Origin: Balanoglossus misakiensis
Taxonomy: Eukaryota > Animalia > Hemichordata
Length of the DNA: 64,000 bases
Direction: 5' to 3'
Assembly (NCBI GenBank): GCA_040954595.2
Contig: CM082579.2
Coordinates: 11,521,625-11,585,624 of the forward strand
Shown: positions 81 to 63,825 of the stretch, piece by piece
How the letters are laid out: every line of letters starts with the position of its first letter
Position numbering within the stretch: position 1 is the first letter of the stretch
Program-made: the position numbers and the translations under genes
The notes under the pieces: generated by a model
What the model was told of the DNA's origin: nothing
The model's database searches: none
Seen by the model: the letters and a program-made list of their open reading frames with translations, nothing else

Positions 81-2039
81 CTACAAAATCCCTGAAATTA
101 GATAATTTTTAGAGCAACTGAAGATCCTGGCGTAGTTTGTGCTGGTATGGGAGGACATATTCTCATCAAGGGGGACACCCATGCGGCGACGACGACCCCT
201 TCCCTTTAAACATTGTATGAAAGCATGCATGACTAAAAGGTCAGAACAACCAAAGCTACTTACATTGGGCTTTTCTGGGGGATCTTCTAGAGAGTCCCTG
301 GCCTAGTTCAAATTGATCCAAAAAATAGAATTAGCAAAACCTTGAAAATGAAATGTTGAAATCTGTCAATGTTATGCCATTTTGGTCAAGGATACATTTG
401 CTGCATATAGAACGATGGATCAAGGTACATTATATTAAACCCAAGATTAGCACATTTTTGAATTCATATGCAAGCTTTAAAAGCACATAATCATTGTGCT
501 ATACGAAATATGCGGTTTGACTGGTCCGACAGTTTAGTCTCCTGATGAGTGAGTCCAGTGACTCATGAAACAGCGTTGTTGAGATTTTACTGCCTTTCGT
601 TTCTCCTACTACCGTACTTTATAATCCTTGTGCCATGTGTGAACACAATGTGTTTGGCTATTTCTGGGTTACAGATATGAAAAGACACTTTAGTTTCAGG
701 ATATCTACAATTGTTGTAAATCACTTACCATGCATCGCAACTCTGTGAGTTTTTCGTCCCTTGCTCCTAACTGTCGCCGTAATGTTTGCCTAAACCTAAA
801 TCTCTGAGAATGAAATAGGAAGAATTATTCATTAAGGATTATAAAAGACGCTTCAAGGAATTGCAGCATGGTGTCATCTATCAAAGTCCTAAATTCTCAA
901 AGTTTATATTTTGAATATGGGGGAACAGGGTGGTGCACAGTACAAAACCACTATGTATGCTAGGTCACATGACATTGGTACTTTGGCCATTCAAGGAATC
1001 AGTTTTTAGCCCATTTTAGAAAAATGATGGCTGATTACTGGTTGCAATGTGTGTAGCAATTGAGAAGTCTTATTTTTAGCATTGTTCAAGACAATGTTTG
1101 CAGTCCCCCCCCCCCCCAAAAAGGCATTTTGATCAAATCTAATGATGCAACAACTTCCCCTCCCAAAGTTGCATTGGCCTTAATCTATTAATTTAACAGA
1201 GCATAACAAAAACAGAGGCATACAAAGAAATGTGTCACACAGTTTTGACAGACATTATGCAAAATTGACTAGGCAATCGAGTGATGCATGGACAAAGGTT
1301 GACCCAACAGTGAATTATTAAACCCAAAACTGAAATCACATATTTGTAGGTAAATTCTAAATTGCATTTCAAATTTAACATACCTTATAGCTTAACTCAC
1401 TCCGTTGCAGCCGGATTGTTCCAAATTTGGGCGAATAATATTCCCACATATCTAAAAAATAATGAAATGATATCAAGGATGATAAATAAAACATTTCACT
1501 ATTTCAAATAAAGCGCTATTATACCAGGTGTATTTCCTCGTTTTTCACATTGCAAGTTGAATATTATCAGCGGTGTAAATTGTTCAAGTCTGAGGCAGTT
1601 AATTGTGTACTAGTTAACTGCATGGTTACAATGAAGAATTACAGGCCAATCATTATAATCACCATTTGAAGCTGTCTATTAAGTGAGCAATCGTCATTTT
1701 ACGGCCTGGAGAGGTGCTGGAGGAATTTCACCAGGCACATGCCAAACCTTTTTTGTGGATTATGACCAAAGGTGTGAATGCAAATGCATTGGTCAATACA
1801 CTGAGGAACCATTAAGGTGCGACATTGGCATTAAACATACAATCGGATAATTTTAGCCTGAGTCGTCTCAGTTAGAAAATGTTATTTAACAGGTACACCC
1901 CACCCCACCCCACCCCACCCTTCCTTGGGCTGGCAGATCAGCAGCTCGAGTTTTTACCTGGAATTGTGTGTGGACGGCGTCTGATTTTGCCGTCCATACA
2001 CAATACATGTACCGGTACACTACTTACAAGACAAAACAT
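81..2039 (-). CDS. Candidate small spliced Arg-rich protein (about 115 aa), unknown function
   Basis: Four putative exons (2039-1958, 1451-1384, 803-729, 203-81) with GT..AG boundaries join in phase (1,0,0) to give MFCLVSSVPVHVLCMDGKIRRRPHTIPDMWEYYSPKFGTIRLQRSELSYKRFRFRQTLRRQLGARDEKLTELRCMGRGRRRRMGVP...GIL*. No family recognised. The last acceptor is weak (AAG) and the stop abuts another donor-like GTGAAT, so the 3' end is uncertain. Confidence 0.4.
487..636. mobile_element. Short hammerhead-containing retroelement fragment (Penelope-like/retrozyme-like) with an internal inversion and target-site duplication
   Basis: 530-620 matches 25641-25731 in direct orientation. 501-529 is the reverse complement of about 25767-25795. 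The insert is flanked by ATAATCATTGTGCTAT (487-502) and ATAATCCTTGTGCCAT (621-636), 14/16 identical. Confidence 0.7.
530..592 (+). ncRNA. Minimal type I hammerhead ribozyme, copy 1
   Basis: Core CTGATGA (542-548); stem II GTGAGTC-cagt-GACTCAT; GAAA (567-570); short stem III (A)CAG-cg-TTG(T); cleavage triplet GTT ending at 580; stem I AGTCTC (536-541)/GAGATT (581-586), extended by CAGT/ACTG across a UU/UU internal loop. Confidence 0.8.
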
Positions 2040-3491
2040 CGAACTATGTGGTACAGACGTGGATCACATCATACCGTGGCTGAAAACTGTTACTCTGAGT
2101 GTCTCATTGCTTGGACCACGACTCCTTGTTTCAGCTCGATATGACTCGAGTTGAAGACACAATAAATCAATATAAATACTACTCGAGTCTTATCGTGACC
2201 TGTATCATGCATGACCCCGATTTGAGTGACGCGCGTGAAAGTGATTTTTGAGAAGCCAAAGGTCAACCCCGTTATGTCCTCGCTCCCTAGTATAATAATA
2301 CTGCACTGTAAAAACATAAAAACTTGGTGTTTTACGTTCGGATATTCTAAGACCGGAAAACCTATCGCTCGAGGGCACTCACTGAGTTCCGACATCATTC
2401 AGTGAAATAAAAATCGGCCGTAAAGTATAGACAGTGACCGTATATGCTTAAAAATAGCCTAATGCTTAGCGAAAGCAAAAAAAAAAAAAATAATAATGAT
2501 AATTTCAAACGTGGTTAGCAGAAAAGTGAATTTCGCTCATTTGTCTAAAATGTTGCAAGTGCTATGGACACGGAAAAGTACGTGAGGACGCTTATGCTAG
2601 AATAATCGTAAAATTGAAAGTCTTGTCATTTAGGCCCCGATGTTAATTGTTCATTCTCCTTCGCAAGTATATCTTTTTAAAATCGGTAATAAATCGCACT
2701 GGGTTATTAAACATGCTTGGTTTTGAAACTAATGTGACTAACGAGGCAACATTGAGTGCGTTGGTCATTCTGTTGTTTTCTACCATTCAATTTGAATTCA
2801 TTTGTCTGAGCTATATGAAGACCTAAACGTTCATGAAAATGACAACAGCAAAAGTGAGTTTTCTAGCAATCCTATGGGGAAAGGCAAATCTAATGCGCTC
2901 GTAAAGATTGTCATTTCTACTCAATTGACTGCTGCCCACGTGGATCTATTTATGCTGTAACTCAATACTTTGTTTACTTTCGATTGCCTTCGACGCTAAT
3001 GTTTTAAGCCATGCAATAAGGCCCTAGTTCTACTGTTGAGTTAGTAAATTATAGAGGTTGGCCTTTTAGTGTTGACAATCCCATGATCTTGACCCGACTT
3101 GCTCCGAGTCCTTTGTACCATTTATTGTTTTGGTTTGACTTAAGGTGGACCTGTTTTCTAGTTTTGGCCCAGTCTCGCTGCACTCAATTTCGAAGACGTC
3201 CGGTCGCCATTATTCTAACACATTACTCAAGCAGAAAACAGAAATTATTGTCACAACAAAATCCCTGCCATTCTTTCTATACAACTTTCTTGCCTATGGT
3301 TTCTCTTGGTACACGACGGATGTGGCATGCACAACGCGAACCGGAACACACGACACGGGCCGGTACAACGGCGCAGCAACTTAAGGGAAGCTGCACGCAA
3401 ACACAACGAAAAATCAGTGACAATAAATATTACACTTACTTGCAATCCTTTGGCACTGTGACAGTATCAGGAGGACTATAATCGATGGAAA

Positions 3492-3800: not shown

Positions 3801-5148
3801 ACTCGAGAAAAAAGATCTATCTAAAGCTAGCAAAAATATAAATGGCGGCGAGAATAATGGAACGTGTGATGGGTACAGGGAACGAAATCGAACTGAATTT
3901 CAGCAGCAAGAGTTTTATTGTTATGCAAATACTTTGAGCGATATGCTAAATAGACAGAAGTGTAAATGACATTGTAAGGAGGTGTTGAAACAAACTGAAC
4001 ACAGTTGTTGATAGCATGCAGATGAGCTGTCAACAATCTCACCAATCAGGAACAGCCTTCCAAGGCTGCATAGCGCTCTCGTAAGGTTATTTTTGACTGT
4101 TCAAATTCTTTACCATGTCACTGCTGCCACTGGCATACAACAATGCATATAACTCATCAACTTTACATGGATTCACTGGCATCAATGATATTCCTTCCAA
4201 AGCGCCACCCATTGTCAAATTACACATGTTGCATGCTTCTGACACGCTCTACCTAAGACAACTTAGACTATAATATCCGAAACTAAATATTAGACATTAG
4301 CTCAGTCTATGTCACATGTCATGGCGCATTTCTTCGAGATAATACTTTACATAGCAAAAGCCCTTACTACGCACTCACTCGATCGCGACTTTACGCTGGT
4401 ATTAGCAACGTTTACATGCAGGGACATTGTGGATCAAAATCTGTAAGAAATAGCTTTATTCTCAGTATTTCTGTTCTGTGTAAAATTGCAATTTCTTGTT
4501 TTACTCGAAACATCACGTTAATATACCCAATACCCCACTTTTTAACATTGCCTGTATGTGTGTAATGGCCATTGTTATCACTGTTGACAAATGAATTCTA
4601 GTTCGGACATGAATTCAAATTTTACACAATAACAATACTGAATATAGACATACATGTACATGAAGTATTTAGAAGCTTAATTCTGGGTATTTTGGAATTT
4701 TATCTAGAACCGCATCAGACACACAAACCAAAATTACTGGAAACATGGTCAAAAGTTGGAGCAATATTTCATTTGGGATCTAAATTTGTGTCCTAAACCC
4801 CTGCGTCGCTCGCGGTGATTGGTAACTATAATGTCCCCGTGTCCCCTGCATATACGTCTTTTCGTCTCATTAGTATTTACTGTTCCGAATGCAGCTGATT
4901 CATTGACTGCCTGATGTTCTTGTCCCTGCCTCACTTTCGAGTGTTCCTTGCCTCGTTCTTCCACGTGGTCCACGCTGTCACGTAATCTGCGGGCCCAGCC
5001 AATCATTGCAGACAGAGCATCATTGGTCACAGCAATTTTTTTTATCCCTCTTGCCTTATAAGCTATGGAAGGTAGATTGGCCAAGTCGGGCTATGTGTTC
5101 AATGGTGTAGGATTCGCGTTTATAGCAGGAGAAATTCAACCATCCGTC

Positions 5149-5266
5149 GCCTATGGCCATACCACGTAGAATAACCCGGTTCTCGTCTGATCACCGAAGC
5201 AAACCTGCGTTGGGCGTAGTTAGTATTTGGATGGGAGACCGCCTGGGAGCTACGTGCTGTAGGGTT
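5149..5266 (+). rRNA. 5S rRNA gene, full length but divergent (possibly an orphon or pseudogene)
   Basis: GCCTATGGCCATACCACG...TTCTCGTCTGATCACCGAAG...GTTAGTATTTGGATGGGAGACCGCCTGGGA...GTGCTGTAGGGTT matches the metazoan 5S consensus, including the internal control region. TATAG motif about 28 nt upstream and a T-run downstream. Small deletion near GGGAATAC. Confidence 0.9.
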
Positions 5267-5267
5267 A

Positions 5268-5273
5268 TTTTTT
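5268..5273 (+). terminator. RNA polymerase III oligo-T terminator
   Basis: TTTTTT immediately after the 5S 3' end. Confidence 0.75.
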
Positions 5274-5488
5274 CCAACTTTTCCATTAATGAGTAGCCGG
5301 ATGGGTAATATTTTTTGTTGCAAGTGTCCGTTTCTTCCTTTTTTCTGCAAGTGTCTGAATTCCAAAACCACTTTTTGCAGAAAAAAACAAACCGCATTTT
5401 TTTCATCCCACAAAACTTAGCCAAGTCGGGTTTTGTGTTCAATGGTGTAGGATTCGGGTTTATAGCAGTATAAATTCAACCATCCTTC

Positions 5489-5519
5489 GCAGACGGCCAT
5501 ACCACGTAGAATAAGCCGG
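5489..5519 (+). pseudogene. 3'-truncated 5S rRNA copy
   Basis: GCAGACGGCCATACCACGTAGAATAAGCCGG corresponds to the first ~30 nt of 5S, preceded by the same spacer. Confidence 0.85.
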
Positions 5520-15867: not shown

Positions 15868-18800
15868 ATGTCTAGTTTTGTAACGACGTTCGCATGTTTA
15901 TTGGCCGCTGTGTTTCCGTTGGTACAAGGAAATGCCATCGGTGAGTGAAACCCAATAAGCCTTTTTTTCAATTTGATGTTTATATTTAATATGGCAAGTA
16001 TTGAAGGCACATTGTTGTGACCCTTCTTTTGTTCAGTGTTAAATTATGAACAAACTGAACAATTTGGTCGATGTGTGACGCAACTCACTGATTCTGAACC
16101 ACATAGACGCCGGTACTTTAAAGGTATACAGTCACCTCCAATTTACATATCGCCATATATAGTTGAAATGGCGTATTTGAGTGTTATAAAGAACGCTTTA
16201 TTTTCGCGTGTGCCACCCACTGAAAATCTGTGATTGGTTAGATCTCGATTTACCATGGTAACTGTGGCTAAATTTGTATAGGTGACCGTATACCTTTAAG
16301 CTCACTTGGTAACAGAGCAAATCGTTCGGAAGTGCTTTTGGGCCGTGCCACTGACCTTTACCCAATCTCCTCAGGATATAGCAACAGATTCGGCCCTGTT
16401 TCCTGCAATGTGTGTATACTTGCGTGGCAAATACAGCGAGTTAAACAAAGGGTACACACATCGATACTTAACTGTGTCGCAATAACCTATAGGCTTATCA
16501 TAAAAACGCTATTTCCAATCTGTGTCGAAATTTTGAATTGATTTAGCATTTTCGTATTTCATATTTTCCCAGGGAATGTTGTTTGGAATGGTAAAGAACC
16601 TCTATATTGCAATGAGTTTAATGCCATGATGGAAGCACTGAAAGTGGACAAGACTTACGATGAATTTTGGTACTATTATGAAATACATGATATATATGAC
16701 TGCGCGAAGGATGGGAGTTTTGCGCCTCTTCAGTGTAATAATTACGGATACTGTTCGTGCGTTAACGCATATGGAAATTTAATCGCTCGCACGTTACTAC
16801 CCGCAAACAGAGGCAAACCAGTTTGTAAAGGTCTGTTGTCAGAACTATATGCAATTGCTGCAAATTCTTGCTTGTTTTCCCTCTGGTTTATGTTTTCTTT
16901 TTAAGTTGGAGTATGCCATTGTAACCTTCAGCGAACCACTGCCACTCTTGTCTAAAATTGCTGAATCGACCTATGTATAAAATAACATTTCTGATTTATG
17001 ACGAGTTTTTAGATAACTTTGTATTGGTAACGCATATATGTATATATGAAGACGTTTAATTATAGTAGTATTATTCAAGTCTTGACTCGGGCCGATACAA
17101 CAACACCTCTCTGAAGCCAAATATATCTTAATGTCACATGAAGTTAAATGTTTCCTAAACTAGGTTTGAAAGTTGGACAGTGCCCCCTGAATAAAGCTAT
17201 GGGTTCCTGTGACGTCACGTGTGGCAATGACGAGGAATGTCCATCAAATCTGAAATGCTGTGACACGGACTGTGGAAAGACTTGTATGGAACCAGCGCAA
17301 GGTTGGCGATCTTTCTCACAGCTTGGTTTCATATTGCACTTACTGAATTTACACACAACTTCCATAGTTTTCTTTTCAAAATCTATCCAGTCGTAATGCA
17401 CAAACAAAGGATATTGCAAAGCTATCACGCGGCGTGTATTATTAATCCCAAAACTACATTAATTTCCTTCGCAGCTGATAACATAATGACCAATCAAAAA
17501 CAAGTTAAGTATCAGCTCATCAAGTTGAACGGATATAAGCCGACAATATAAACACGTAATCATTGGTTTAATTATAATAAGCGTCATAATAAATTTGAAA
17601 TTTAATGACCAAATTCCATTTCCACAGAGTTTCTATGACCACTACTTTGTATGATATTATCTTTAAAAAAGCTAATATTGCCTTTCAAAAAACACGGATT
17701 GCGTGTGTTTTCATTCCTCTGCAGAATGCTATTCCTCTGAGTACGCATGCTCAGACGGACTAACTTGTGTTGGTGACAGTCTAGTTTGTGATGGTATACC
17801 TGATTGCCCGGATGGAGGTGATGAAATGACCTGCAGTAAGTAGACTGCAACCATCTGTTACTTCAGAGGGCAAAGGAACAATCATGAACAAACCAGCAAA
17901 TGTGGAATTCAGTTTAACTACTTTAATTCTCGATTTTCAGCAGCGATTAACTGGTTATATGTACATCCCATTCGGGGGGGGGGGGGGCTGGAGGCTTCTG
18001 GTTTTATGTGCCTTGAATTTTTTAAAGTATTAAACATGTTGACAGACTTTGGCAACTTTTGATTATTCTATCTTTAGAATGGAATTTTAGGAATTTTCTC
18101 AAATTTAACATATTTTACATAAAAGACAAGATGATGGACACCCTGGTTTATTCGCTGTACATAACAAGTCTCACCGCCCACTTAAATACATCGACTATTT
18201 GAAAGGTTTTGAGGATAATCAATTTTCTGAAAATCTGCCCGTGAGGTAATTACCTTAGGAAATTCAGGAAGTACCACAATTAGTATTGTTATATCGTTTT
18301 GGTAGCCGAGCCACGTTTTGAATGTCCGTTTGGTAAGAAAATACCCATGGAACTTGCCTGCGATGGTTACCCGGACTGCGTAGATGGCAGCGATGAGAAA
18401 GTCTGCGGGGAACTAGAAATGTGTAAGTCTGTTGTATTTGTTTAGAACACTTATGCTTACATAATGCCAGGGGGGTCAAACACATGATAAAAATTGCATT
18501 ATTAGACAGTTCAAGTAGACAATTCTGGGTAGGAGAGAGGGAATATCACCTTTATTTCCTGAAACTTCTTGTCATTTGTTGTTGTTTTTCTGGTAAAAAA
18601 AATCGACAACACACCAATTTGGAACAGTAATTTAGCTTAAAGGTAAATGAGCTGCAACTGGATAAAAAAATTAAAGTTTTAAATAATCTCACATATGCTT
18701 TTAATTATGTCTATTAAATGATATTTCATGATAATATATTAAGCTCAACACTTGTTTATGACAAAATGGCCAAAAATTAAAGAAAAATGAAAATTCCTGC

Positions 18801-21800
18801 AATTTTTAAAAAAGTACAATATTGCAATGAAAAAGGAAAATATAATGTCTCAGCGGTGTACATTTACTTCCATGAGCTCAAGTGGATGAGATCATGGTTG
18901 TTTTTATGAAGTTTCATAACCGGAAATGCAACATTTTCATTGTTTCTTGCATTTTCCCACGGTGGCGTCCATATTCGCTTAAAACTTACACATGCACTCA
19001 TATTTAAGGTTTATAATGCTTGTGTATTATTCACTGCCTTCACCTGCATGGACTAATGGTAGTACAGTTTGAAACAAAAATTATGATAATTATCCCAAAA
19101 GTTGAAGCTTATGTGCCCTTAATGCACTCTCCATGTGTTATAAGATGTAAAGAAAGAAAACTGCTACTTTAAGTCTATGTACATGTCACCCACACAGGCT
19201 TATTTAACACTCGCCTGGTAGCAAAATCCTCAGGGACAGTCGAACATGTGTTAACAATCACCTCCATGTAGTGGAAACTTGTCTATAGCTACTAATGCAC
19301 CCTAAAAGCATTGCTGAATTATGTGAATGTGTTTTATTTTGTACAAGTTGTATGCGATGATACTATTTCACCTTATTGGGTATGTGATGGCTGGGTCGAC
19401 TGCCTTGATGGAAGCGATGAGGTAAATTGCGGTAAGTATGGTATAATCTAAGAATTCTCCTTGCTCTACAATACTGCGCATATATATCGGTTAACACAAA
19501 TTATTGTCTTGAAGAAGGGAATTGTAGGGACATGTTTTCTTCACTCTGTCAGGCATGCATAAGACTTCCGGTATGAACTGCCAGTAATCTTTGAATTTCA
19601 TTTTTTTCTGGCCAGTGAATAGACGCAAACAAAACTATAATATGTGCATGTTAACTTCGCTATGTTTAAAACGTGGTATTATCGTACGCATGTCATTAGA
19701 AAGATTATTTAAAGCCTCAAGAGCTGCCATTTTTACATTATTTGCATGAGTTCACTTTCCAACTCAGATTGGTCCATAATAATTGCTTACTATAATAGGT
19801 ATGCATCAACATGTTTTCGACGCCCTATCGTACCTGCCTGTTGCAATTTGAGTAAGTGGTATATTAAACGGGTACCGCATCCAAGCAATCAGCCTCCATA
19901 CAAACTGTACACAACTATCCTGGTATGCGTCAAAGAAATGACGAATTGATGAAAATACAAGTTGTATGAATTAATGGTGATGAAATTTGGCAGCTCATCG
20001 GAGTTTAACACTGTGACTTGGTGTTGTTTTTCCCTGATACTATATTGTCAAATGACATCGCCAAAAGGCACAATCCCTTCCATACTGATACAAATGTAAC
20101 CTAACTAGTTATTTTAGAGAGATTTTATCATCTCAACATCATAACATTTAACGATTTAAACATTGTTCTGCATCCAAACTAAATTTCAGCACAACTATCT
20201 CATTACATCTATTGCGAATCGGGAAGTACAGTATTTTCACAAACAGTGGTTAAAACAGTATTTCGTGAATTGGATGTGCATGCACTTAAAAAGTTTCCGT
20301 GTCTTTTACATGCAGTTGTTTCAAATTTCGTACTTCCCTATGTACACTAAACATAGCCTCTGCGAGATTCACAAATCTATGGACGTCACCGACGTGACGT
20401 CATTTTCACGACTGTTTCACGATAAATGTGAAAAACGGATGATTCTCTGTCTTTCTTTTGAAATGCTTGCAGACTGTGACGGGAAGGGGAACGGTTGGCA
20501 CCAGTGTCCACAAGGTATATGCATTCAAGAACATCAAATTTGTGATGGTTATGATGACTGTGAAGATGGCAGTGATGAAACTTGCGGTAAGCGCGACACA
20601 TAAATGCTATTACCCAGCATTCAGTGCAATAATTATAGTGGCTCAGAGCAATAGCGAGCATATTTAAACTGATGTGACGTTAACTGTAACAATTGGGGGT
20701 ATGCTTATATACCTAAAACAGTGTTGGTTCCATGTGACAACGGCGTTATGATTCCGGAAAAAGACATTTGCGATTACGAAGATGATTGCGGCGATAACTC
20801 GGATGAATCAAATTGCTGTAAGTTTATCACGCTATATGTAGGTTTATCATTTTATTGACACAAACAACTTCATTAAAGTTATATTCATTGTTTTATTGTG
20901 TAATTAAGCTACAAAGCATATGTGACCATGACTAACAAAAACCTTATATCAGTTGTCTAGTCATACATTCTGTAAAATAAAATTGGCTTGTCTAAGATCA
21001 CAATACGTTGCTCCATAGCCCAGTTTTCCCCGAGATTCAAACGCATGAAAATGTAGATGAACGGTTTCCAAAGTTTATCATCCAGCCAATCAATCAATTA
21101 ATCATCAAACCATGCTTCCTGTATTTGTTTTGTAAGTATATCGACCAGGATGTGGCGATGATTATAAAGCGCAGTGTGCCAACAGCGGAGAGTGCATCGA
21201 CATTTCGTATTTCTGTGATGGATACTACAATTGTAGAGACAAGAGTGATGAAGAAAACTGTCGTTAGTATAACATGAACTTGATGGGAGAGAGGGGGTTG
21301 ATAAAGAAGAGCGAAAGAAAGATGATGAGAGAAAGAAGAGGTGGAGAGAGCAGAAAGAAATGGGAAGACAGAGAAGAGGAGACAGGCAGAGAGGAATGGG
21401 TGTTTGTGTATGTGTGTGTGTATGTGTGAAAGAGAGAGAGATTTAAATTTTGCCTGATTGAGAATAAATTTAGATCTATTGAGAGCATGTGAATTGTGAT
21501 AAGTTAGCAGAGCACGTTTCAGATTCCTGGTTGACTTAGCTTTTTAGGCAGAAATTAATTATTTGTCAAAATGTATCCATGGCAATGAAATGCATTTAGA
21601 TTGTTTTTTATCTTCATTTGTATGTTGTATTAGCATGTGAAACTCCGAACCACCGATGTAGTTATGGACTTTGTGTTCAGGACCGCCACGTATGTAATGG
21701 CTTCGATGACTGCGGTGATGGTAGTGATGAATTAAACTGCCGTAAGTGAAGTGTTTAGATTTGAAACAATTTGATAGCTTCAAATGACATATACCATTGT

Positions 21801-22984
21801 AAATTTAAACCATTTTTTTCAAGCTTTGAGATGAAATCTCTGGTACCATCCTACCGTGGTACTTAGTTATAAACTAATTTCAAGTTGTTTACAAAATAAC
21901 TTTTGTTTTAAATAGCTGTATTTGTAGGTTTTCCCTTTGAGAAATATCATTATTTTCAAATGGACGAATCACAAAATAAATGAGCCACATAAAAAGTTAG
22001 AGTAAAAGTTGATGGCAGCCATCATGAAAAGAGCCCAATATGCATCCCCTGTAATGTGTATAGTGAAAATGTAGTAGAATATCACACCAGACTGATTGAA
22101 TTTTTACCCAATTTTAAATTCTTGCTTTCGACAAATAATGCCAAATGATACAAAGATGTGCCATATACCTACCATCAAGGGGAAGGTAAGTCCCAAAGTG
22201 GCCGGATGGGAAAGTCATTGCAAGATGTTTTGACGAAATAGATCGTATACTTTGGTAAAGACGGAATTATAAATGGTACATATTTTATGTGTTCCTCTAG
22301 CGTGTAAATCACATCAACACGATTGTGGCGATGGAGTTTGTCTTCCCGGATGGGATATTTGTGATGGTTTCAGCGACTGTGCAGATGGAAGTGATGAAAA
22401 CAATTGCCGTAAGTTAATGCTAAGTTACAACTATGGCGTGAAACATTCAATCACAATGGGGGGGGGGGTGATATCGGTGCAACACTAGGGCCACTTCCAT
22501 GACCACTGAGTTAGTATGACATGTCATGCATCATTCAACAATACATACAAAATTCATCCTTTTGTAACAGACATAATTCAATTTTTTCTTCGATTAGTTA
22601 GAGTGCACAAAGTCAATGGTACATGATATGGTTGGTTAGGGACTGGTCAGTTTCTTCGGCTGACCGCCAACTGACCCCCGGCCCCTTACTCATTGAACAT
22701 GGAAAAGTGGGTGACCCCAGTGACCCCCCATCAACCCATTCCAAAACAGGGTGATCCTCCCCTTCCCATGATGCGTACAAATCATTCAAATTTCTGAGGA
22801 AATTGCTTGCTTTGGAAGTGAAGTGAGTTACTTGGAAAAGTTTTAATTTCATTATTCCTTATGACTTATTCTGTGGATGACCCTGCAAAATTTGAATGAG
22901 CAAAAGCCAAAACAAATGAGCTTATTTTACTTTACAAAACACCATGCATTCTCTTTTAAAATTAATTAATTAATTAATTGCTGC

Positions 22985-23054
<70 letters not shown>

Positions 23055-25792
23055 GTTTTTCTTTGTTTGTCTGTTCATTCTTTTATTTATTTATTTAGCC
23101 TGCGGAGCGCGCAAATTTAGTTGTAACAACAGCAAATGCATTTGGAAGGGAAACGTTTGCGATATTATTGACGACTGCGGCGATTACAGCGATGAAGAGG
23201 GTTGTGGTAAGGACCATTTTTTCCATTCTCCTGGATAATTCTTCCTTGGCATTTTGGCCAATTATTTTAGCAGGGACTTTGACGAGATGTGTGAAGGGTT
23301 ATTTAAATGATTTGTATTTATTGAACGACTGTGGACCAAAGAGCTTGAAATTTGGTCGTCAGGCAGTTAGTGACTGACATTTCAGTAATTCCTTCAGGAA
23401 GTGTTGCAGACATACATGTTACGTCTGATTTTCAGGTCACTTTGAATGCGATGATGGTGGCGTTGTTCGTGGTAGGTATCAGTGCGATGGCGATGAGGAC
23501 TGCAGTGACGGGAGTGATGAGAAAGACTGCCGTAAGTGTTAATAATTAGGCGCGCTTTGCATTTCGTTCCTTAATCAACGTTGATCCCTGTTGTAAAGTA
23601 TGTTGTGATTCATGTGTAAGAATGTTGATGACATCACATAGCATTAGCTTATACATATACTAACAATACTAGTTTTGTATAAGAATTCGTTCAGAAATTT
23701 ACCATGTTAATTTCAAATGTTTGTTGAATTTAGGGCGGCAACGTCCACAGGCAAATATAACAAATTAAACAGAACAATGTCTCACGAAACCAATGTATTA
23801 CGTCACCAGTGAAACTGAGTGAGTGAGTGGATGAGTTGTTGTTGTTGTTCTTGTTGCTCCTTAATTCTTCCTCGAATGAGAATAGTTACATCAACAGATT
23901 TTAATTACAGTATTACGAAGTGATCTAATAAACTAATGAAGAAATGAATGAAAGTTTGAAAATGGTAACGAACGAATATAAGGATGGACATCCCATCTCA
24001 GGCGTATGGACCAGTTAGGGGTTGTACAACGTACATTTCGATTTTGTTACACAAAAGCCACTTGACCGTTCACCGAATCTTACAAAGAATTCATAGACAT
24101 ATTCACTCTAACCTTTCCAGCCTGCTCGGGAGAGACTCTAAATTGGCGTTGTGCATCGGGGCGTTGTATTTCTATATCTGGAAGATGTAATAACTACACC
24201 GACTGTGACGCCGGTGACAATTCTGATGAAATTGGTTGTGGTGAGTGCAGTCAATATACAAAATTAATATCCACTCCGTTGGTGCAATTTTAATTCACCC
24301 GTGTGGCAATTAACAGGGTTTGTATAATTAACCAGACTTGTATAGCAAGCTGGTGGCATTGTTATTGGTAGTTTAAAAGCCCCCCCCCCCCACCGCTAGA
24401 TTAGTCGGCTTGAGTCTGAATGTTATGTTAGATTTTATTTCAATAAATGCGTTTACTCAACTTATAAAGTTTAGTTTGTTGAGCCATTTAGATAATATTT
24501 AACACAGGTATAAGATCAATTATATTATACCATGCTACCGCCCGCCATTCTGATTGGATGAGAACTCAATCCAGCGATGGGAAAATACTGTTTAACCACT
24601 GCTGACAGTGGTAAAACGGGCCCCTGAACTAGCATACAGCAGGGAAAATGTGAGGTTAAACCATAGTCGCTTGGGGTTTAAATGAGTAAATGAAATAAAA
24701 CACTGTTGAATTTACGTAAATTTTATTTTGGAACTGCTCTGCGGGAATATTTTGTATTTTGCCGTGCGCGATGCCTGTCTTGTCACTTTTGCCATCTGCT
24801 TCGTGTTTAACGCTCAGTCCCGGGCGTTCGGGTTTACATTCATCGTCGCCATGTTGGTTCGCAATCGTAACTTCTCTATCTGACACTGTTTAGTTAAGAA
24901 AATGACACTGATATGCCACAAAAACAATTGTTGATATAATATAATAGCAATAACCCCACCTCAGTTGGGTATACACTCGATTTGGGTACAATTCGCTCCA
25001 TATAGCACTCGCCTAACAGCTTGTGCTATTTGTCTTGAATTGAACCCAAATCTCGTGTATACCCGCAGGTGGTGGTTATTGCATAATTGAGGCTTTGTCA
25101 ATTAAAATGCTGACATTTTGCAAACACCTATGAATTGCTTGTTTTAGAAGTCCACGTGTGTGATGATGGAGAGACCATCATTAGACGACCGTACTCGGAA
25201 CGAATTTTTCAGATTTTTCAGTATCAACACGATAGCAGAACAGTCCTGTGTGATGGAGCAATCCACTGTTTGGATGAGAGTGATGAGAGAAAATGCGGTG
25301 AGTATCAAGAGTCTCCTTTACGCTCACTAGCTTCTTTGTTAGGTAATCTAAACCAAAATTAAGACAATTTTGATGGTAAGGTCTGAAATATGTAAAGCAG
25401 AGAACATTCATTTGACCAGCCAACGTGAATTGATAATAAAATTTTATCACAATTTTCAATTTGGTCCCTCTGCCGACATAAACATACCGTATTTTGGCTA
25501 TAAGGCCAATGTATGTATGTCTCTCTGTCAGTTTGTCTGTATGTAGCTATACACATTGTTATGCAAAACGGCCCACCCCAACTTACATTCCACCACTTGT
25601 GTACCTGCATAAAAACGCGCCTTCCCCCTTGCATTTCCGCCAGTTTAGTCTCCTGATGAGTGAGTCTAGTGACTCACGAAACAGCGTTGTAGAGATTTTA
25701 CCGCCTTCCGTTTCTCCTACTACCCTCCTTTATACTCCGCTCTACTCTTGTATTGAGCACATTGGATCGAACCAGTCGAACCGCATACTTCG

Positions 25793-25824
<32 letters not shown>

Positions 25825-26125
25825 TGTATGTATGTATGTATGTATGTATGTATGTATGTATGTATGTATGTATGTATGTATGTATGTATGTATGTATGTA
25901 TGTATGTATGTATGTATGTATGTATGTATGTATGTATGTATGTATGTATGTATGTATGTATGTATGTATACGTAAATCTAGTACAGTCTTTCCTTTTTTT
26001 CGTTTTCAGAATGCAAAGCGTATCACTTTAAGTGTCCAAATGGTTTGTGTATGTTTCGCAGTTACTTATGTAATGGCTATGATGATTGTCACGACAACTT
26101 TGATGAAGAAGGTTGTTTATATTAA
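15868..26125 (+). CDS. Secreted modular protein: signal peptide + thyroglobulin type-1 + WAP + 13 LDL-receptor class A repeats, no transmembrane segment
   Basis: Sixteen exons joined by phase-1 introns: 15868-15940 ([24 protein letters not shown]); 16573-16830 ([10 protein letters not shown]...[11 protein letters not shown]1); 17164-17301 (KVGQCP..C...C..DEECP..LKCC...CGKTC, WAP); then LDLa exons 17725-17835, 18306-18422, 19348-19431, 20473-20586, 20722-20817, 21137-21262, 21634-21741, 22301-22408, 23099-23206, 23436-23531, 24121-24240, 25148-25297 and 26010-26125, each with a CD/CN..DC.D.SDE..C-type motif. AATAAA at about 26231. Confidence 0.9.
16118..16299. mobile_element. TTAA-flanked MITE (Kolobok-like), family A copy 1
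   Basis: TTAA-AGGTATACAGTCACCT ... AGGTGACCGTATACCT-TTAA terminal inverted repeats; related copy at 39656-39837. Confidence 0.85.
18637..19122. mobile_element. TTAA-flanked MITE with degenerate TIRs
   Basis: TTAA-AGGTAAATGAGCTGCAACT ... AGTTGAAGCTTATGTGCCC-TTAA. Confidence 0.65.
19709..20008. mobile_element. TTAA-flanked MITE with degenerate TIRs
   Basis: TTAA-AGCCTCAAGAGCTGCCA ... TGGCAGCTCATCGGAGT-TTAA. Confidence 0.55.
22985..23054. repeat. (ATCT)n microsatellite
   Basis: Pure tetranucleotide tandem array. Confidence 0.97.
24523..25086. mobile_element. Non-autonomous element ending in a long imperfect hairpin (24947-25082)
   Basis: GCAATAACC..GGGTATACAC..GATTTGGGT.CAATTC...GAATTG.ACCCAAATC..GTGTATACCC..GGTTATTGC. 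A short inverted pair ATTATACCA (about 24524) / TGATATAAT (about 24932) encloses the body. Same architecture as 38962-39609. Confidence 0.65.
25545..25795 (+). mobile_element. Hammerhead-containing short repeat (solo Penelope-like pLTR / retrozyme-like) next to a (TATG)n tract
   Basis: TATA-like CATAAAAA at about 25608, hammerhead at 25641-25701, and a 3' tail ...ACCAGTCGAACCGCATACTTCGTAT shared (inverted) with the 487-636 copy. 5' boundary is approximate. Confidence 0.65.
25641..25701 (+). ncRNA. Minimal type I hammerhead ribozyme, copy 2
   Basis: CTGATGA (25653-25659); perfect stem II GTGAGTC-tagt-GACTCAC; GAAA (25678-25681); stem III (A)CAG-cg-TTG(T); GTA cleavage triplet ending at 25691; stem I AGTCTC/GAGATT. 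Confidence 0.85.
25795..25969. repeat. (TATG)n microsatellite
   Basis: Pure tetranucleotide array; explains the CMYV-repeat ORFs. Confidence 0.97.
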
Positions 26126-26619
26126 ACCGACCAGATTGCCATGTCAGTGCCCCTATAAAGCAAATAAGTTTGTAAACATTTGGTCAATTTACTCATCTAG
26201 ACTAGTTTAGTTTTATCTGTCATAAAATTAAATAAATCGCGTAAAGAAAAATATGTCTATTCCTTCGTGCGTGGTTGAAGCCTTTATTAGGCCTACATTC
26301 GAAATAGGTGTAATCCTTATTAGGTATCAGATCTAATATGGACTTGTCAAGTTAACACATATTTAAAATTGTTTGACCGACACAGTATGTACACGAAAAG
26401 AGTGTGTCTAAGTCTTCGAAAGACTGTTACCACATTCGCCTTTTGTCTGAATTCCAAAACCACTTTTTGCAGAACAAATCAAACCCCAATTTCTTTCCAT
26501 CCAACTTGCCTTATAAGCTATGGAAGGTCGATGGGTTACCACCAAAAATTGGCCAAGTCGGGCTATGTGTTCAATGGTGTACGATCCGGTTTTATAGCAG
26601 GAGAATTCCACCATCCTTC

Positions 26620-26676
26620 GCCTACGGTCATACCACGTAGAATAAGACGGTTCTCGTCTGATCACCAAAAAGCCAA
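26620..26676 (+). pseudogene. 3'-truncated 5S rRNA copy with about 175 bp of upstream spacer (26444-26619)
   Basis: GCCTACGGTCATACCACGTAGAATAAGACGGTTCTCGTCTGATCACC. The spacer matches 5353-5390 followed by 5050-5148. Confidence 0.88.
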
Positions 26677-27204: not shown

Positions 27205-30025
27205 TCAAAATCCGACCATAACCTCTACTTCACACAGTGTTAGTATCTGTGTCTTGTCAACAAGCTGAATGGACACATATCGCCCTTTGAATGGAGCTTC
27301 ACAACCGCATCGGATGCGGATTGTCTCCTGTCTTGACAAATTGCCAACTATTTTGCCACACACAGGATTCTTCCCGTAGTCAAAGTCAGCGCCAGCTCGG
27401 ATTTCAGCACTATTTAAACGATTCGCTGTAAAACAAAAAAAGAAAGTTGTAACACAGAAGTTAACTTACATATTTGTCCAAATATCATTACTTTATGAAT
27501 TGTTGTAATGGTGATTAATATGGGTTTCACACATGCACCATTAAGATGTTTCTGAAATGTATCAGATCAAATACTGGCATCAAGTATTATTATACGGTTT
27601 AAGTGGTCCTGAAACATTTCAGACTTGAGACGACTTTGCCGGTCAGACCTGAGCCGATGTAAGGATTAACACCTCTTCCCAACACATTGTTTATGGGGCC
27701 GAGCGTCAGGGTCTTTTGCTTAAACTTTGTGGATGTCTCAAAAGATTAATCCTCTGTGTTTACATAAAAAAATAGTGTCTCTGAAACTTTTCTAATTTTA
27801 CCCAGTCTTAACCTGGTATAAATGATACCTTCATTACTTACAGCAACAGTCTTGTCTGTTAGTAATGACCACCTGGTATATATCATACATATTCTTCAGA
27901 TACACTGTCCATCGTGGTTGGAATTCTTTAGTGGTGTAGGTACATGAATATCCGTTAACTAGATTACTGTTCTTGTTGCCGTCCACTGCCTTTGACGATT
28001 CACCGTTGTATCTGGAGTGAGTTGAAGTCTGATATGTTGATTTTCCCGTTGCAACATTGAAGAGGAATGAAGGCAGAGGATGCTGACACTCTGAAATGAA
28101 GATTTAAGATGAAACGTCCGAATGGAATCGTTTATTTCGTATGTACAAAATGAACATAGGTGGGCATACTTAGTCGTTGACTGCAACAAGTCTTTGGGGA
28201 AGTGTATGATATAAGCCCTGCAACATATTCATCAGTGAGAAGTCAGCTGCATCTTAGATCATTCCGGAAGGCATTTATTCTAAACTGAGAAAAGGATCAG
28301 ACATTTATTTTGAAGTTTACTTCAAATCCAGCACTTGCCCCGTGGTTTCTTGCTTTTAGGTCTTGTTCATTTAACCCTTTCACCAACATGCACCATGGTT
28401 CAGTCCAAACCTATTGTTTTCTATGGTAAGCTGGAACTCTAAAAAGGGAACAGAATGCAAACCTCTAGAAATTGGTTTGTTAGTCGTTCGCCTTAGGGGT
28501 GGACTGGTACGAAGCTTTGGTGGCTGTGGTGGAGTTGTTGGTTGTCGTGTTGGATGTTGCGTCTTGGAAGGAAGTGTTGATCTTGGCTGTGTTGGGGCGT
28601 GTGTCTTTGGTGGAGTTGTTAGTTGTTGTGTTGGAGCTTGCGTCTTGGAAGGAAGTGTTGATCTTGGCTGTGTTGGGGCGTGTGTCGTTGGTGGAGTTGT
28701 TAGTTGTTGTGTTGGAGCTTGCGTCGTGGAAGGAGGTGTTGATCTTGGCTGTGTTGGGGCTTCTGTCTTTGGTGGAGTTGTTGGTTGTTGAGTAGGAGCT
28801 TGCGTCTTGGAAGGAAGTGTTGATCTTGGTTGTGTTGGGGCGTGTGTCTTTGGTGGAGTTGTTAGTTGTTGTGTTGGAGCTTGCGTCTTGGAAGGAGGTG
28901 TTGATCTTGGCTGTGTTGGGGCGTGTGTCTTTGGTGGAGTTGTTAGTTGTTGTGTTGGAGCTTGCGTCTTGGAAGGAGGTGTTGATCTTGGCTGTGTTGG
29001 GGCTTCTGTCTTTGGTGGAGTTGTTGGTTTTTGAGTAGGAGCTTGCGTCTTGGAAGGAAGTATTGATCTTGGTTGTGTTGGGGCGTGTGTATTTTGTGGA
29101 GTTGTTGGTTGTTGTGTTGGAAGCAGAGTCTTTGGACGAAGAGCTGGCGATGGAGCTTGCGTCTTGGAAGGAAATGTTGTTGGTGGTGGCAATGATGGGG
29201 CTTCTGTAGTTAGAGAAGCTGAAAGGGAAAAAAAAACACTTAGGCCATTAAAACCAAATAGCTCAAGCAGAAATGAGCGGGTAGAAAATAGTTGTGTATA
29301 AACCTGATGAAAAGTTAATTGTGGTTTTCAATGATTATTGACAATTACAACATAATCAACAGCAGCTCAGGTTACTGTGCTTTCTGAGGTTATACCTCTT
29401 ATTGTAAACAATCGTACCATCCCGATAAGAAAATTTCATGAAGGTTAATACTCCCGTAGTGGTTTCAATTCAAATACATCAAATACATGATGTAACATCT
29501 TTGTAACATCTGAAACTTAAATGTTTCTTAAAAGTCTTACTTGGCACTGCGTAGAACTTGTAGACTTGATTGGCCTGTGGGCCTCCCACACCGTATGATG
29601 CACAATCTTCAGATGGACCATATTTCTGATAGGTATCTTCAATATCTGCAGCTGTTGCACAGATCCCTCTATCAGTGAGAGCGAACATTGTGAAGCCACG
29701 AGAAGATGCAGCTTGCATGCACTGTGTGATGAGGTTTTGTGGCTGTCTATAGGCACACGCGGTCATCGGTCTTTGTCCTTCTAAGATTGGTATCGCTCTG
29801 TCGGTGTTATTTTCTTTCCAACAGCCAAGGTTTTCTATCCGTGTGCCTAAAATAATGTGTGAAAGACCAGCATTTATGGAAAAGTATATGACACAATTTT
29901 TACTCTCGCATATAACATTAAATAAATTATGTAAGAAAACCTTTGACATATTGAATACTTTAGACAGGAAATTCACCTTGTACAACAGCAAACCACAGAA
30001 CAGTTATGATGTGAATAAGCTTCAT
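27205..30025 (-). CDS. Secreted lectin-like protein: signal peptide + WSC-like domain + Pro/Thr mucin-like stalk + F-type (fucolectin) lectin domain
   Basis: Exons joined by phase-1 introns: 30025-29977 (MKLIHIITVLWFAVVQG); 29846-29541 (ENLGCWKENNTDRAIPILEG...C..AA..RGFTMFAL...GIC...YQKYGPS..C...GVGGPQANQVY); 29218-28463 (PTS repeats); 28090-27842 (NVATGKSTYQTST...KAVDGN...SCTYT...ITNRQDCC); 27425-27205 (SNRL...GRYVSIQL...LTLCEVEVMVGF*). Probable 5' UTR exon with a donor at about 30323. Confidence 0.9.
28520..29190 (-). repeat. Coding minisatellite with a 75-bp unit (25 aa, TQAPTQQLTTPPKTHAPTQPRSTLPSK-like)
   Basis: Near-identical tandem units GGAGTTGTTAGTTGTTGTGTTGGAGCTTGCGTCTTGGAAGGA.GTGTTGATCTTGGCTGTGTTGGGGCGTGTGTCTTTGGT. 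Confidence 0.93.

Positions 30026-31593: not shown

Positions 31594-63825
<32,232 letters not shown>

What the first reader, a model, noticed from the sequence alone, without database searches (positions are those of the whole stretch)
25641..25701. Intact minimal type I hammerhead ribozyme in sense orientation in the last intron of the LDLa gene
Seen: full core (CUGAUGA, GAAA, GUA), 7-bp perfect stem II, 6-bp stem I, and a very short stem III whose sequence CAGCGUUG is self-complementary with G-U pairs. A second copy lies at 530-592. Established: such minimal hammerheads mark Penelope-like pLTRs and non-LTR retrozymes in metazoans and cleave best as dimers. Inference: a dispersed self-cleaving RNA retroelement family in this genome. 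Because it is transcribed within the host pre-mRNA, cleavage after 25691 could compete with splicing of the final exon. This is the best candidate for an undescribed system in the window, although the ribozyme class itself is known.
Basis: partly seen in the sequence, partly recalled or inferred. Interest (0 to 1): 0.85.

Follow-up and report, generated by a model that had tools for sequence, protein, structure and literature searches.

The report
Penelope retrotransposon stub carrying a hammerhead
The self-cutting RNA motif in this intron is really in the sequence, but it is likely the leftover 3' end of a known kind of jumping gene (Penelope-like, Hydra group) copied many times in this genome, and as a lone copy it is predicted to cut too rarely to disturb the host gene.

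Summary
The hammerhead is real: core, 7-bp stem II, 6-bp stem I, GUA site at 25691, palindromic stem III, sense in the last intron (25298-26009) of an LDLa-repeat gene. A descriptor finds only it and the copy at 542 (0.01 expected). It is not an undescribed system. It lies in a ~250-nt, 5'-truncated end of a repeat (319 and 229 contigs laid in two runs) set in (TATG)n. Its closest relatives (L018, L096) follow the C-terminus of a Hydra-clade Penelope-like (PLE) RT-endonuclease ORF by 87-93 nt. Published acorn-worm Hydra families have the same ribozyme anatomy; the host is likely an acorn worm. Copies show PLE hallmarks: inverted 5' pieces, two fixed 3' ends, TA-type targets. The active monomer fold is predicted at 0.2% or less; only the dimer is stable. 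One RNA-like contig splices the intron out, possibly from another allele. Competition with splicing is unsupported. Worth noting: copy 5' ends cluster just before the ribozyme, about 30 nt after a family TATAAA, suggesting it sits at the transcript start. This scan reported Hydra-type stubs before in other genomes.

The parts
25148..25297 (+). Penultimate coding exon of the host LDLa-repeat gene
   Evidence: AG at 25146-47 and GT at 25298; covered by X3 contigs, joined to the exon before and the exon after (tables 7 and 8)
25298..26009 (+). Last coding-region intron (712 nt) holding the insertion
   Evidence: GT...AG; X3 loose end behind 25297 reads into 26010
25509..25548 (+). Degenerate (TATG)n tract, likely the left half of the target site
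   Evidence: 80-86% matches to the TATG tracts
25550..25609 (+). Repeated upstream part of the element (3' UTR side of the pseudo-LTR); 25557-25568 reads LLCK and may be the last codons of the lost ORF (weak)
   Evidence: summed depth 2,767-6,884 in X1 against about 55-170 in most unique flank bins; relatives end in xLLxN 87-93 nt before the core, here 84 nt; no HMM hit in the window. Left border uncertain (about 25516-25550)
25610..25615 (+). Position of a TATA-like box: TAAAAA in this copy, TATAAA in most of the family
   Evidence: 25612 A>T in 2,162 of 2,598 depth (X1) and 4,584 of 6,853 (X2); promoter function inferred, untested
25640..25645 (+). Initiator-like CCAGTT (A at 25642), where many copies begin; putative transcript start
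   Evidence: loose ends before 25639-25645 in 12 X1 and 23 X2 contigs among the 14 of 126 rows shown; X1 depth 8,239 to 21,748 across 25639/25640; copy B joins here
25647..25697 (+). Minimal type I hammerhead; predicted cut 25691/25692; palindromic stem III 25682-25689
   Evidence: family variants >=8% inside it: 25667 T>C (loop II) and 25684 G>A (perfect palindrome)
25698..25734 (+). Conserved segment after the ribozyme, ending at the inner 3' end (CTTTATA, +43 from the cut site)
   Evidence: 6 X1 and 4 X2 contigs leave just after this motif; copy B and L053 end here
25735..25796 (+). About 60-nt 'tail' up to the outer 3' end (CGTATA, +105)
   Evidence: repeated; homologous to L018, L012, L014 outside the search pattern, z 9-10; found inverted in copy B and in X3 record 19
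25795..25969 (+). (TATG)43.8 microsatellite, likely the right half of the target site
   Evidence: TRF
26010..26125 (+). Last coding exon (LDLa repeat, TAA at 26123-26125)
500..623 (+). Copy B: TATA + inverted outer half of the tail (504-529) + ribozyme segment from the putative start (531) to the inner end + TATA; triplet GUU

Best explanation
The motif is a minimal type I hammerhead that is likely the ribozyme of a Hydra-clade Penelope-like retrotransposon, left in the intron as a ~250-nt 5'-truncated 3' end, and it is predicted to be almost inactive there because it needs a second copy to fold. Shown: the motif, its repeated nature, its borders and its homology to ORF-linked relatives. Inferred mechanism: the parent element is transcribed from its pseudo-LTR, probably starting about 11 nt before the ribozyme core; its GIY-YIG endonuclease nicks TA-type microsatellites; its RT starts copying at one of two fixed internal sites, +43 or +105 from the cut site, both ending in TATA. 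Starting on the 3' pseudo-LTR gives truncated ends like this one; starting on the 5' copy would give the common ~95-nt stubs that run from the transcript start to +43; priming from both target strands would give inverted stubs like copy B. In the parent RNA two ribozymes would pair through the CAGCGUUG/CAACGUUG palindrome and cut; copies keep the cut site intact, so uncut RNA is the usual template. In the host pre-mRNA the lone copy is a passenger removed with the intron.
For: Repeat family: 319 (X1) and 229 (X2) contigs laid on 245 nt, peak summed depth 39,476 and 87,529 (the tool warns this is no copy number). Linkage in relatives: of 105 loci fetched by a core-plus-palindrome pattern, 7 match this element by blastn; the part downstream of stem I, not in the pattern, matches L018, L012, L014 at z 10.0, 9.7, 9.2, above all 200 shuffles (98 motifs tested, median z 0.2). 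A profile of 47 full-length RT-EN proteins ends 47-202 nt before the ribozyme on the same strand in 10 of 105 loci (8 distinct), 87 and 93 nt in L018 and L096. Those proteins carry the Hydra marks of PMC8557442 section 11: DK[TS] 47 of 47, CxCx4-6C 46, CxxC 45, CxH 34, RWK-like 29. Penelope-1_SK and -2_SK (acorn worm, Hydra sheet, (TA)n targets) have the same layout of core, long stem II and acag-NN-ctgt stem III; the host's best protein hits are acorn worms (64, 58, 46%). Inversions: copy B and 2 further opposite-strand joints at 25641/25737 and 25647/25750, as described for PLEs. Two 3' ends: +43 and +105 here; in relative family F1, 14 of 38 distinct 3' junctions at +43 to +50, 8 more reaching about +45 by eye, 11 at +101 to +125, like the two RT start sites in PMC11167929. 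Covariation: 39 of 56 distinct motifs have both stems, shuffles mean 1.07, maximum 5. Folding: double hammerhead -42.3 against a dimer minimum of -42.5 kcal/mol; active monomer fraction 2.4e-3 alone, 4e-6 in the intron.
Against: No genome is held, so no PLE ORF from this organism was linked to the ribozyme; the window has no hit to the profile. The tail is about 60 nt, not the 30-40 nt described. Both 3' ends end in TATA like the target, whereas PAc primes without homology. The TATA-like box is missing at that distance in 6 of 12 relatives examined, including F1. One locus begins at 25690, at the cut site (X1 record 8, X2 record 16), which could be a copy of cut RNA. The spliced X3 contig differs from the window at 2 of 30 letters of the last exon and may come from an allele without the insertion. 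Folding models ignore tertiary contacts and proteins; the PAc ribozyme is protein-assisted.
Confidence: 0.86

Rival explanations
1. The motif is a monomer of a non-LTR retrozyme: a non-coding tandem repeat cut into unit-length circular RNAs.
For: Type I hammerhead with a palindromic stem III is shared with retrozymes; a 2026 preprint argues retrozymes derive from PLE pseudo-LTRs and often occur as monomers, so the two are not exclusive; short copies without ORF dominate.
Against: No tandem unit in the window; all 4 joints listed are opposite-strand, none head-to-tail; only 1 of 105 relative loci (L004) has a ribozyme core in a tandem unit of 60 nt or more; stem II is 7 bp, the PLE type, not the 4-bp canonical type; closest relatives follow an endonuclease ORF. 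Arrays with units longer than the 245 nt laid would not have shown.
Confidence: 0.05
2. The intronic ribozyme cuts the host pre-mRNA often enough to compete with splicing of the last exon and so tunes the LDLa gene.
For: Sense orientation, intact core and GUA triplet; precedent in the CPEB3 intronic ribozyme (PMC10919898 passages); many related copies could supply a partner in trans, and a hetero-dimer of copies A and B folds at -39.8 kcal/mol.
Against: Active monomer fraction <=0.24%; PLE minimal hammerheads showed no monomer cleavage and low dimer cleavage; slow intronic ribozymes did not affect splicing (Fong 2009, seen only as cited); the acceptor is 318 nt downstream, against 9.9 kb for CPEB3; a spliced contig exists (allele caveat); nothing marks this copy out from the family.
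Confidence: 0.06
3. The ribozyme belongs to another PLE clade (Neptune, Nematis, Poseidon) or to a non-autonomous element only mobilised by a Hydra-type protein.
For: No ORF from this genome was seen; L018 and L029 also hold fragments of a different PLE-like RT nearby (clade label recalled from motifs).
Against: In L018 that fragment is on the opposite strand, while the Hydra-type C-terminus is collinear and 87 nt away; the published look-alikes are Hydra-clade.
Confidence: 0.03

Closest known systems
Hydra-clade PLEs, especially Penelope-1_SK and Penelope-2_SK of Saccoglossus kowalevskii (Craig et al. 2021, PMC8557442; section 11 and supplement rows)
   Same: ctgatgag core, 7-bp stem II starting gtgag, cgaa-acag-NN-(c/t)tgt palindromic stem III, 4-6-bp stem I, near the 3' end, TA-type targets, acorn-worm host
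   Different: stem II and loop sequences differ; loop III is cg with G-U pairs; target here is (TATG)n; no ORF recovered from this genome
Minimal hammerheads of metazoan PLEs (Cervera and de la Pena 2014, PMC4209133; parts 1-2 of 4 read)
   Same: long helix II, palindromic helix III, G10.1-C11.1, mostly single dispersed copies, pairs on opposite strands
   Different: no extra unpaired base before stem II; stem I is a full 6 bp
PAc (Poseidon, Anolis) mechanism (Frangieh et al. 2024, PMC11167929; parts 1-2 of 4 read)
   Same: two internal RT start sites downstream of the ribozyme that define a tail; uncut RNA as template; AT-rich targets
   Different: tail about 60 nt; both ends match the target motif TATA, whereas PAc primes without homology; different clade
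Metazoan non-LTR retrozymes (PMC7229834 part 2 of 6; bioRxiv 10.64898/2026.07.22.740005 parts 1-2 of 5)
   Same: type I hammerhead, non-coding copies, PLE kinship
   Different: no tandem array seen; non-canonical stem II; collinear with a PLE ORF in relatives
Intronic CPEB3 ribozyme (PMC10919898, passages)
   Same: self-cleaving motif sense in an intron
   Different: HDV-like, active as a monomer, conserved single copy; this one is a dimer-dependent repeat copy

Membership tests
Type I hammerhead ribozyme | Core CUGANGA, GAAA, NUH with three helices, open at stem I | tested here: met
   stem III is 2 bp in the monomer, 10 bp in the dimer
Type I hammerhead ribozyme | Covarying stems among relatives | tested here: met
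   39 of 56 distinct motifs; first stem I pair C-G 27, G-C 4, U-A 2; counts are sequences, dominated by one family
Type I hammerhead ribozyme | Rfam hammerhead model match | tested here: not met
   minimal PLE variants were found by descriptor in PMC4209133, so this does not exclude the class
Type I hammerhead ribozyme | Self-cleavage at NUH | not testable with these tools
   only contigs available
Penelope-like element | Hammerhead in the pseudo-LTR just 3' of an RT + GIY-YIG ORF | tested here: inconclusive
   met in homologous relatives L018, L096; ORF absent from this truncated copy, no genome held
Penelope-like element | 5' truncation and inverted 5' pieces | tested here: met
   copy B; joints 25641/25737 and 25647/25750
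Penelope-like element | Optional tail between two fixed 3' ends | tested here: met
   +43 and +105; same in F1; longer than the 30-40 nt described
Hydra clade | RWK, DKT, CxCX5C linker, CxxC and CxH around E and N, no CCHH | tested here: inconclusive
   met by regular expressions in 29-47 of 47 proteins related to L037, whose profile hits L018 and L096; not testable on this copy; no tree against named Hydra proteins
Hydra clade | Insertion into TA-type microsatellites | tested here: met
   (TATG)n on both sides of A, TATA at both ends of B; TATG/CATA beside other copies; 15 of 38 F1 3' junctions
Non-LTR retrozyme | Head-to-tail tandem units each with a hammerhead | tested here: not met
   limited to the window, contigs on 245 nt and 105 loci
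Non-LTR retrozyme | Abundant circular RNA | not testable with these tools
   no raw RNA reads

The most novel reading that the evidence does not exclude
In this Hydra-type family the hammerhead is the first structure of a TATA/initiator-started transcript, and RT primes by TATA microhomology at two fixed sites, so the element keeps shedding ~95-nt SINE-like ribozyme stubs into introns. Each stub is a silent half-ribozyme that could be switched on in trans when parent PLE RNA or protein is present, so bursts of PLE expression would cut many host pre-mRNAs at once through the shared palindrome.
Probability: 0.1. Interest if true: 0.7.

Novelty: new member of a known kind. Interest (0 to 1): 0.22.

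Why it matters
As it stands, little: one more Hydra-clade PLE family in an acorn-worm-like genome, of a kind tabulated in 2021 and noted four times before in this scan. The useful by-product is a map of element ends: 5' ends just before the ribozyme, two TATA-ending 3' ends. It predicts where a Hydra-clade transcript starts and where its RT primes, neither of which I found described for this clade (paper searches). If trans-activation of intronic stubs were real, it would give the unexplained PLE ribozyme a cost to the host and a testable reason for strand bias in introns.

Tried and rejected
Own genome: none held, so no census. Rfam: no hammerhead hit. Viral contigs: 0 pattern matches and no relative of the L037 endonuclease. 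Run search: 3 runs, one sample, no RNA holder listed; X3 is labelled 'DNA?' and I read it as RNA only because its contigs join exons and most intronic unique bins have no depth. Reads were laid only up to 25794, so the junction across the microsatellite and an empty-site allele were not examined. No place where many molecules begin or end was listed, and contigs cannot show one. ESM Atlas on a neighbouring exon: no hit above 0.78, uninformative. Pfam does not recognise the PLE proteins (P0008 0 families; L037 RT RVT_1 below cut-off). No PLE protein remnant in the window by tblastn or profile. Selection on this family's ribozyme from variant counts: 2 variants in 51 nt against 12 in 194 nt outside is no clear deficit; only their harmless nature is informative. 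A spliced 5' exon as the cause of the 5'-end cluster (as in D. virilis): rejected because the sequences before 25639-25640 agree only 0.49-0.51. L037's leader and its own 3' tail do not align by blastn, so 'tail = 5' UTR' stays a lead. My first reading of L029 as ribozyme upstream of its own RT was dropped: the collinear Hydra-type C-terminus lies 202 nt upstream. Lunse et al. 2017 was not held and is known to me only from the review. Look-up of earlier findings by sequence: nothing. Supplements of the 2026 preprint were not seen and may list related families.

Full report
Observation. Stem I is 25647-25652/25692-25697, the core CUGAUGA 25653-25659, stem II 7 bp, GAAA 25678-25681, the palindrome CAGCGUUG 25682-25689, the triplet GUA with a predicted cut at 25691/25692. 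It is sense in the 712-nt intron 25298-26009 of a gene made of LDLa exons; the next exon carries the stop codon. A descriptor finds 2 hits in the window, this one and 542, against a mean of 0.01 in 100 controls. Rfam misses it. The second copy is 91% identical over 103 nt, has GUU at the cut site, and carries an inverted piece of the first copy's 3' flank in front.

Folding. The monomer's best fold pairs the core with the palindrome and is inactive. The constrained active fold has a predicted share of 2.4e-3 for the 51-mer, 8e-4 for 25642-25796 and 4e-6 for the intron up to the microsatellite. Two copies give the double hammerhead at -42.3 kcal/mol, within 0.2 of the minimum. These are nearest-neighbour predictions without tertiary contacts or proteins.

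The family in this organism. No genome is held. Three runs of one sample hold the locus. On 25550-25794, 319 and 229 contigs of X1 and X2 were laid; summed depth peaks at 39,476 and 87,529 over the ribozyme, against about 55-170 in most unique bins of X1. The tool warns this is no copy number; I read it as hundreds of copies, order of magnitude only. Two variants at 8% or more fall inside the ribozyme: 25667 T>C in loop II and 25684 G>A, which makes the perfect palindrome CAACGUUG (33% and 35% of depth). Both keep the dimer structure. Of 126 loose-end rows 14 were shown: 5' junctions at 25639-25645 (12 contigs in X1, 23 in X2) with unrelated flanks, and 3' departures just after CTTTATA (25734) in 6 and 4 contigs. 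Of the 16 longest X1 and X2 pieces listed, 8 run from 25639-25645 to 25724-25727. Four joints were listed, all opposite-strand; two of them (25641/25737, 25647/25750) repeat the layout of copy B. Copy B spans 500-623 with TATA at both borders. TATG or CATA tracts adjoin other copies and both sides of this one.

Relatives elsewhere. A pattern of core plus palindrome, with no stem constraint, returned 105 metagenome loci, 107 matches, 56 distinct motifs with flanks; 39 have both stems (1000 shuffles: mean 1.07, maximum 5), with several pair types at each position. One family dominates these counts, and about a dozen loci are chance hits in high-GC coding DNA. Seven loci resemble this element. 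The 99 nt after stem I, outside the pattern, match L018, L012 and L014 at z 9-10 (alignment). From the RT fragment of L037 I fetched 133 proteins, 120 listed, and built a profile from the 47 of 660 aa or more. They carry the Hydra-clade marks given in PMC8557442 section 11: DK[TS] 47, CxCx4-6C 46, CxxC 45, CxH 34, RWK-like 29 of 47; a crude CCHH-type expression matched 0. The profile's C-terminus ends 47-202 nt before the ribozyme, same strand, in 10 of 105 loci (8 distinct), 87 and 93 nt in L018 and L096. The window has no hit; LLCK at 25557-25568 lies at the matching distance and may be the last codons, which is weak. The host's best hits for a neighbouring gene are acorn worms. The supplement of PMC8557442 lists Penelope-1_SK and -2_SK from an acorn worm in its Hydra sheet, with (TA)n targets and ribozymes of the same layout (compared by eye).

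Ends and mechanism. In relative family F1 (57 matches), 14 of 25 distinct 5' junctions lie 1-15 nt before the core, 5 at 24-80 nt, 6 at or beyond the reference's limit. Of 38 distinct 3' junctions, 14 lie at +43 to +50, 8 break at +27 to +38 but continue in family-like sequence to about +45 (by eye), 11 lie at +101 to +125 and 5 elsewhere. Here the ends are +43 and +105. PMC11167929 showed for another PLE that RT starts at two internal sites that define the tail, and that uncut RNA is the main template (parts 1-2 of 4). I infer the same here. The 5' cluster fits a transcript start: most of the family reads TATAAA at 25610, 32 nt before the A of CCAGTT; this copy has TAAAAA. A TATA-like hexamer lies 35-44 nt before the core in 6 of 12 relatives checked and is missing in the other 6, F1 among them; D. 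virilis Penelope is TATA-less (PMC2377424 passages). The initiator and TATA consensus and the twin-priming reading of the inversions are recalled knowledge, from no call. One locus starts at 25690 and may be a copy of cut RNA.

Effect on the host gene. X3 behaves as RNA: one 920-nt contig joins three exons and another reads from 25297 into 26010. That junction contig differs from the window at 2 of 30 letters, so it may be an allele without the insertion; it shows the intron is used, not that this allele is unharmed. PLE minimal hammerheads gave no monomer cleavage and low dimer cleavage (PMC4209133); slow intronic ribozymes left splicing unchanged (Fong 2009, as cited in PMC10919898); the acceptor is 318 nt away. 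Intronic hammerhead repeats are common: 42-44% of Xenopus retrozyme copies are intronic (2026 preprint). The PAc ribozyme needed protein, which leaves trans-activation open.

Verdict. A real, dimer-type hammerhead in a truncated Hydra-type PLE end: a new member of a known kind (0.86). Retrozyme 0.05, host regulation 0.06, other clade 0.03. Four earlier notes of this scan reached the same kind of reading in other genomes; I had stated mine before seeing them and did not test theirs. Interest 0.22.

Noticed in passing
window 24530-25083: Very high-copy repeat in the intron before this one: summed depth up to 76,159 (X1) and 332,248 (X2), many internal deletions; its right part looks palindromic by eye, MITE-like.
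   Followed up: no
window 5033-5519 and 26444-26669: 5S rRNA-like sequence (Rfam 85.5 bits at 5149-5265) with decayed partial copies at 5411-5519 and just after the LDLa gene (81-89%): possibly a 5S-derived SINE.
   Followed up: no
window 57622-59765 and 46407-47146: LINE-type RT ORF (RVT_1 4e-34) ending in (ATT)n, inserted into a ~740-nt repeat whose uninterrupted 94% copy lies at 46407-47146 on the other strand.
   Followed up: partly
L037 minus strand, positions about 1200-3420: Near full-length Hydra-type ORF that starts about 55 nt after a (TA)n tract; this leader holds a TGAGCAC motif like the tail here, hinting that the tail is the 5' UTR and the outer 3' end lies at the start codon.
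   Followed up: partly
X1 record 8 and X2 record 16, window 25690-25794: A copy whose match begins at the predicted cut site; could be a copy of self-cleaved RNA or an alignment break.
   Followed up: no
L008 and 18 related matches (family F2): Hammerheads with 4-bp stem II, 6-bp stem I and the same CAACGUUG palindrome, canonical retrozyme-like; none linked to the PLE profile.
   Followed up: partly
window 16542-26125: The host gene has a thyroglobulin type-1 exon followed by a long run of single-exon LDLa repeats and a stop right after the last repeat; no known orthologue was sought.
   Followed up: no
window 28380-30003 minus strand: Pro/Thr-rich mucin-like exon built of 81-nt repeats (7.3 copies) next to a weak WSC-domain exon (E 0.0086).
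   Followed up: no
window 32200-55600 minus strand: Large multi-exon gene with a RING domain at 45598-45870; RNF213-like by recalled resemblance, untested.
   Followed up: no
window 38962-39105: 144-nt palindrome (86%) near an (ACAT)n tract.
   Followed up: no
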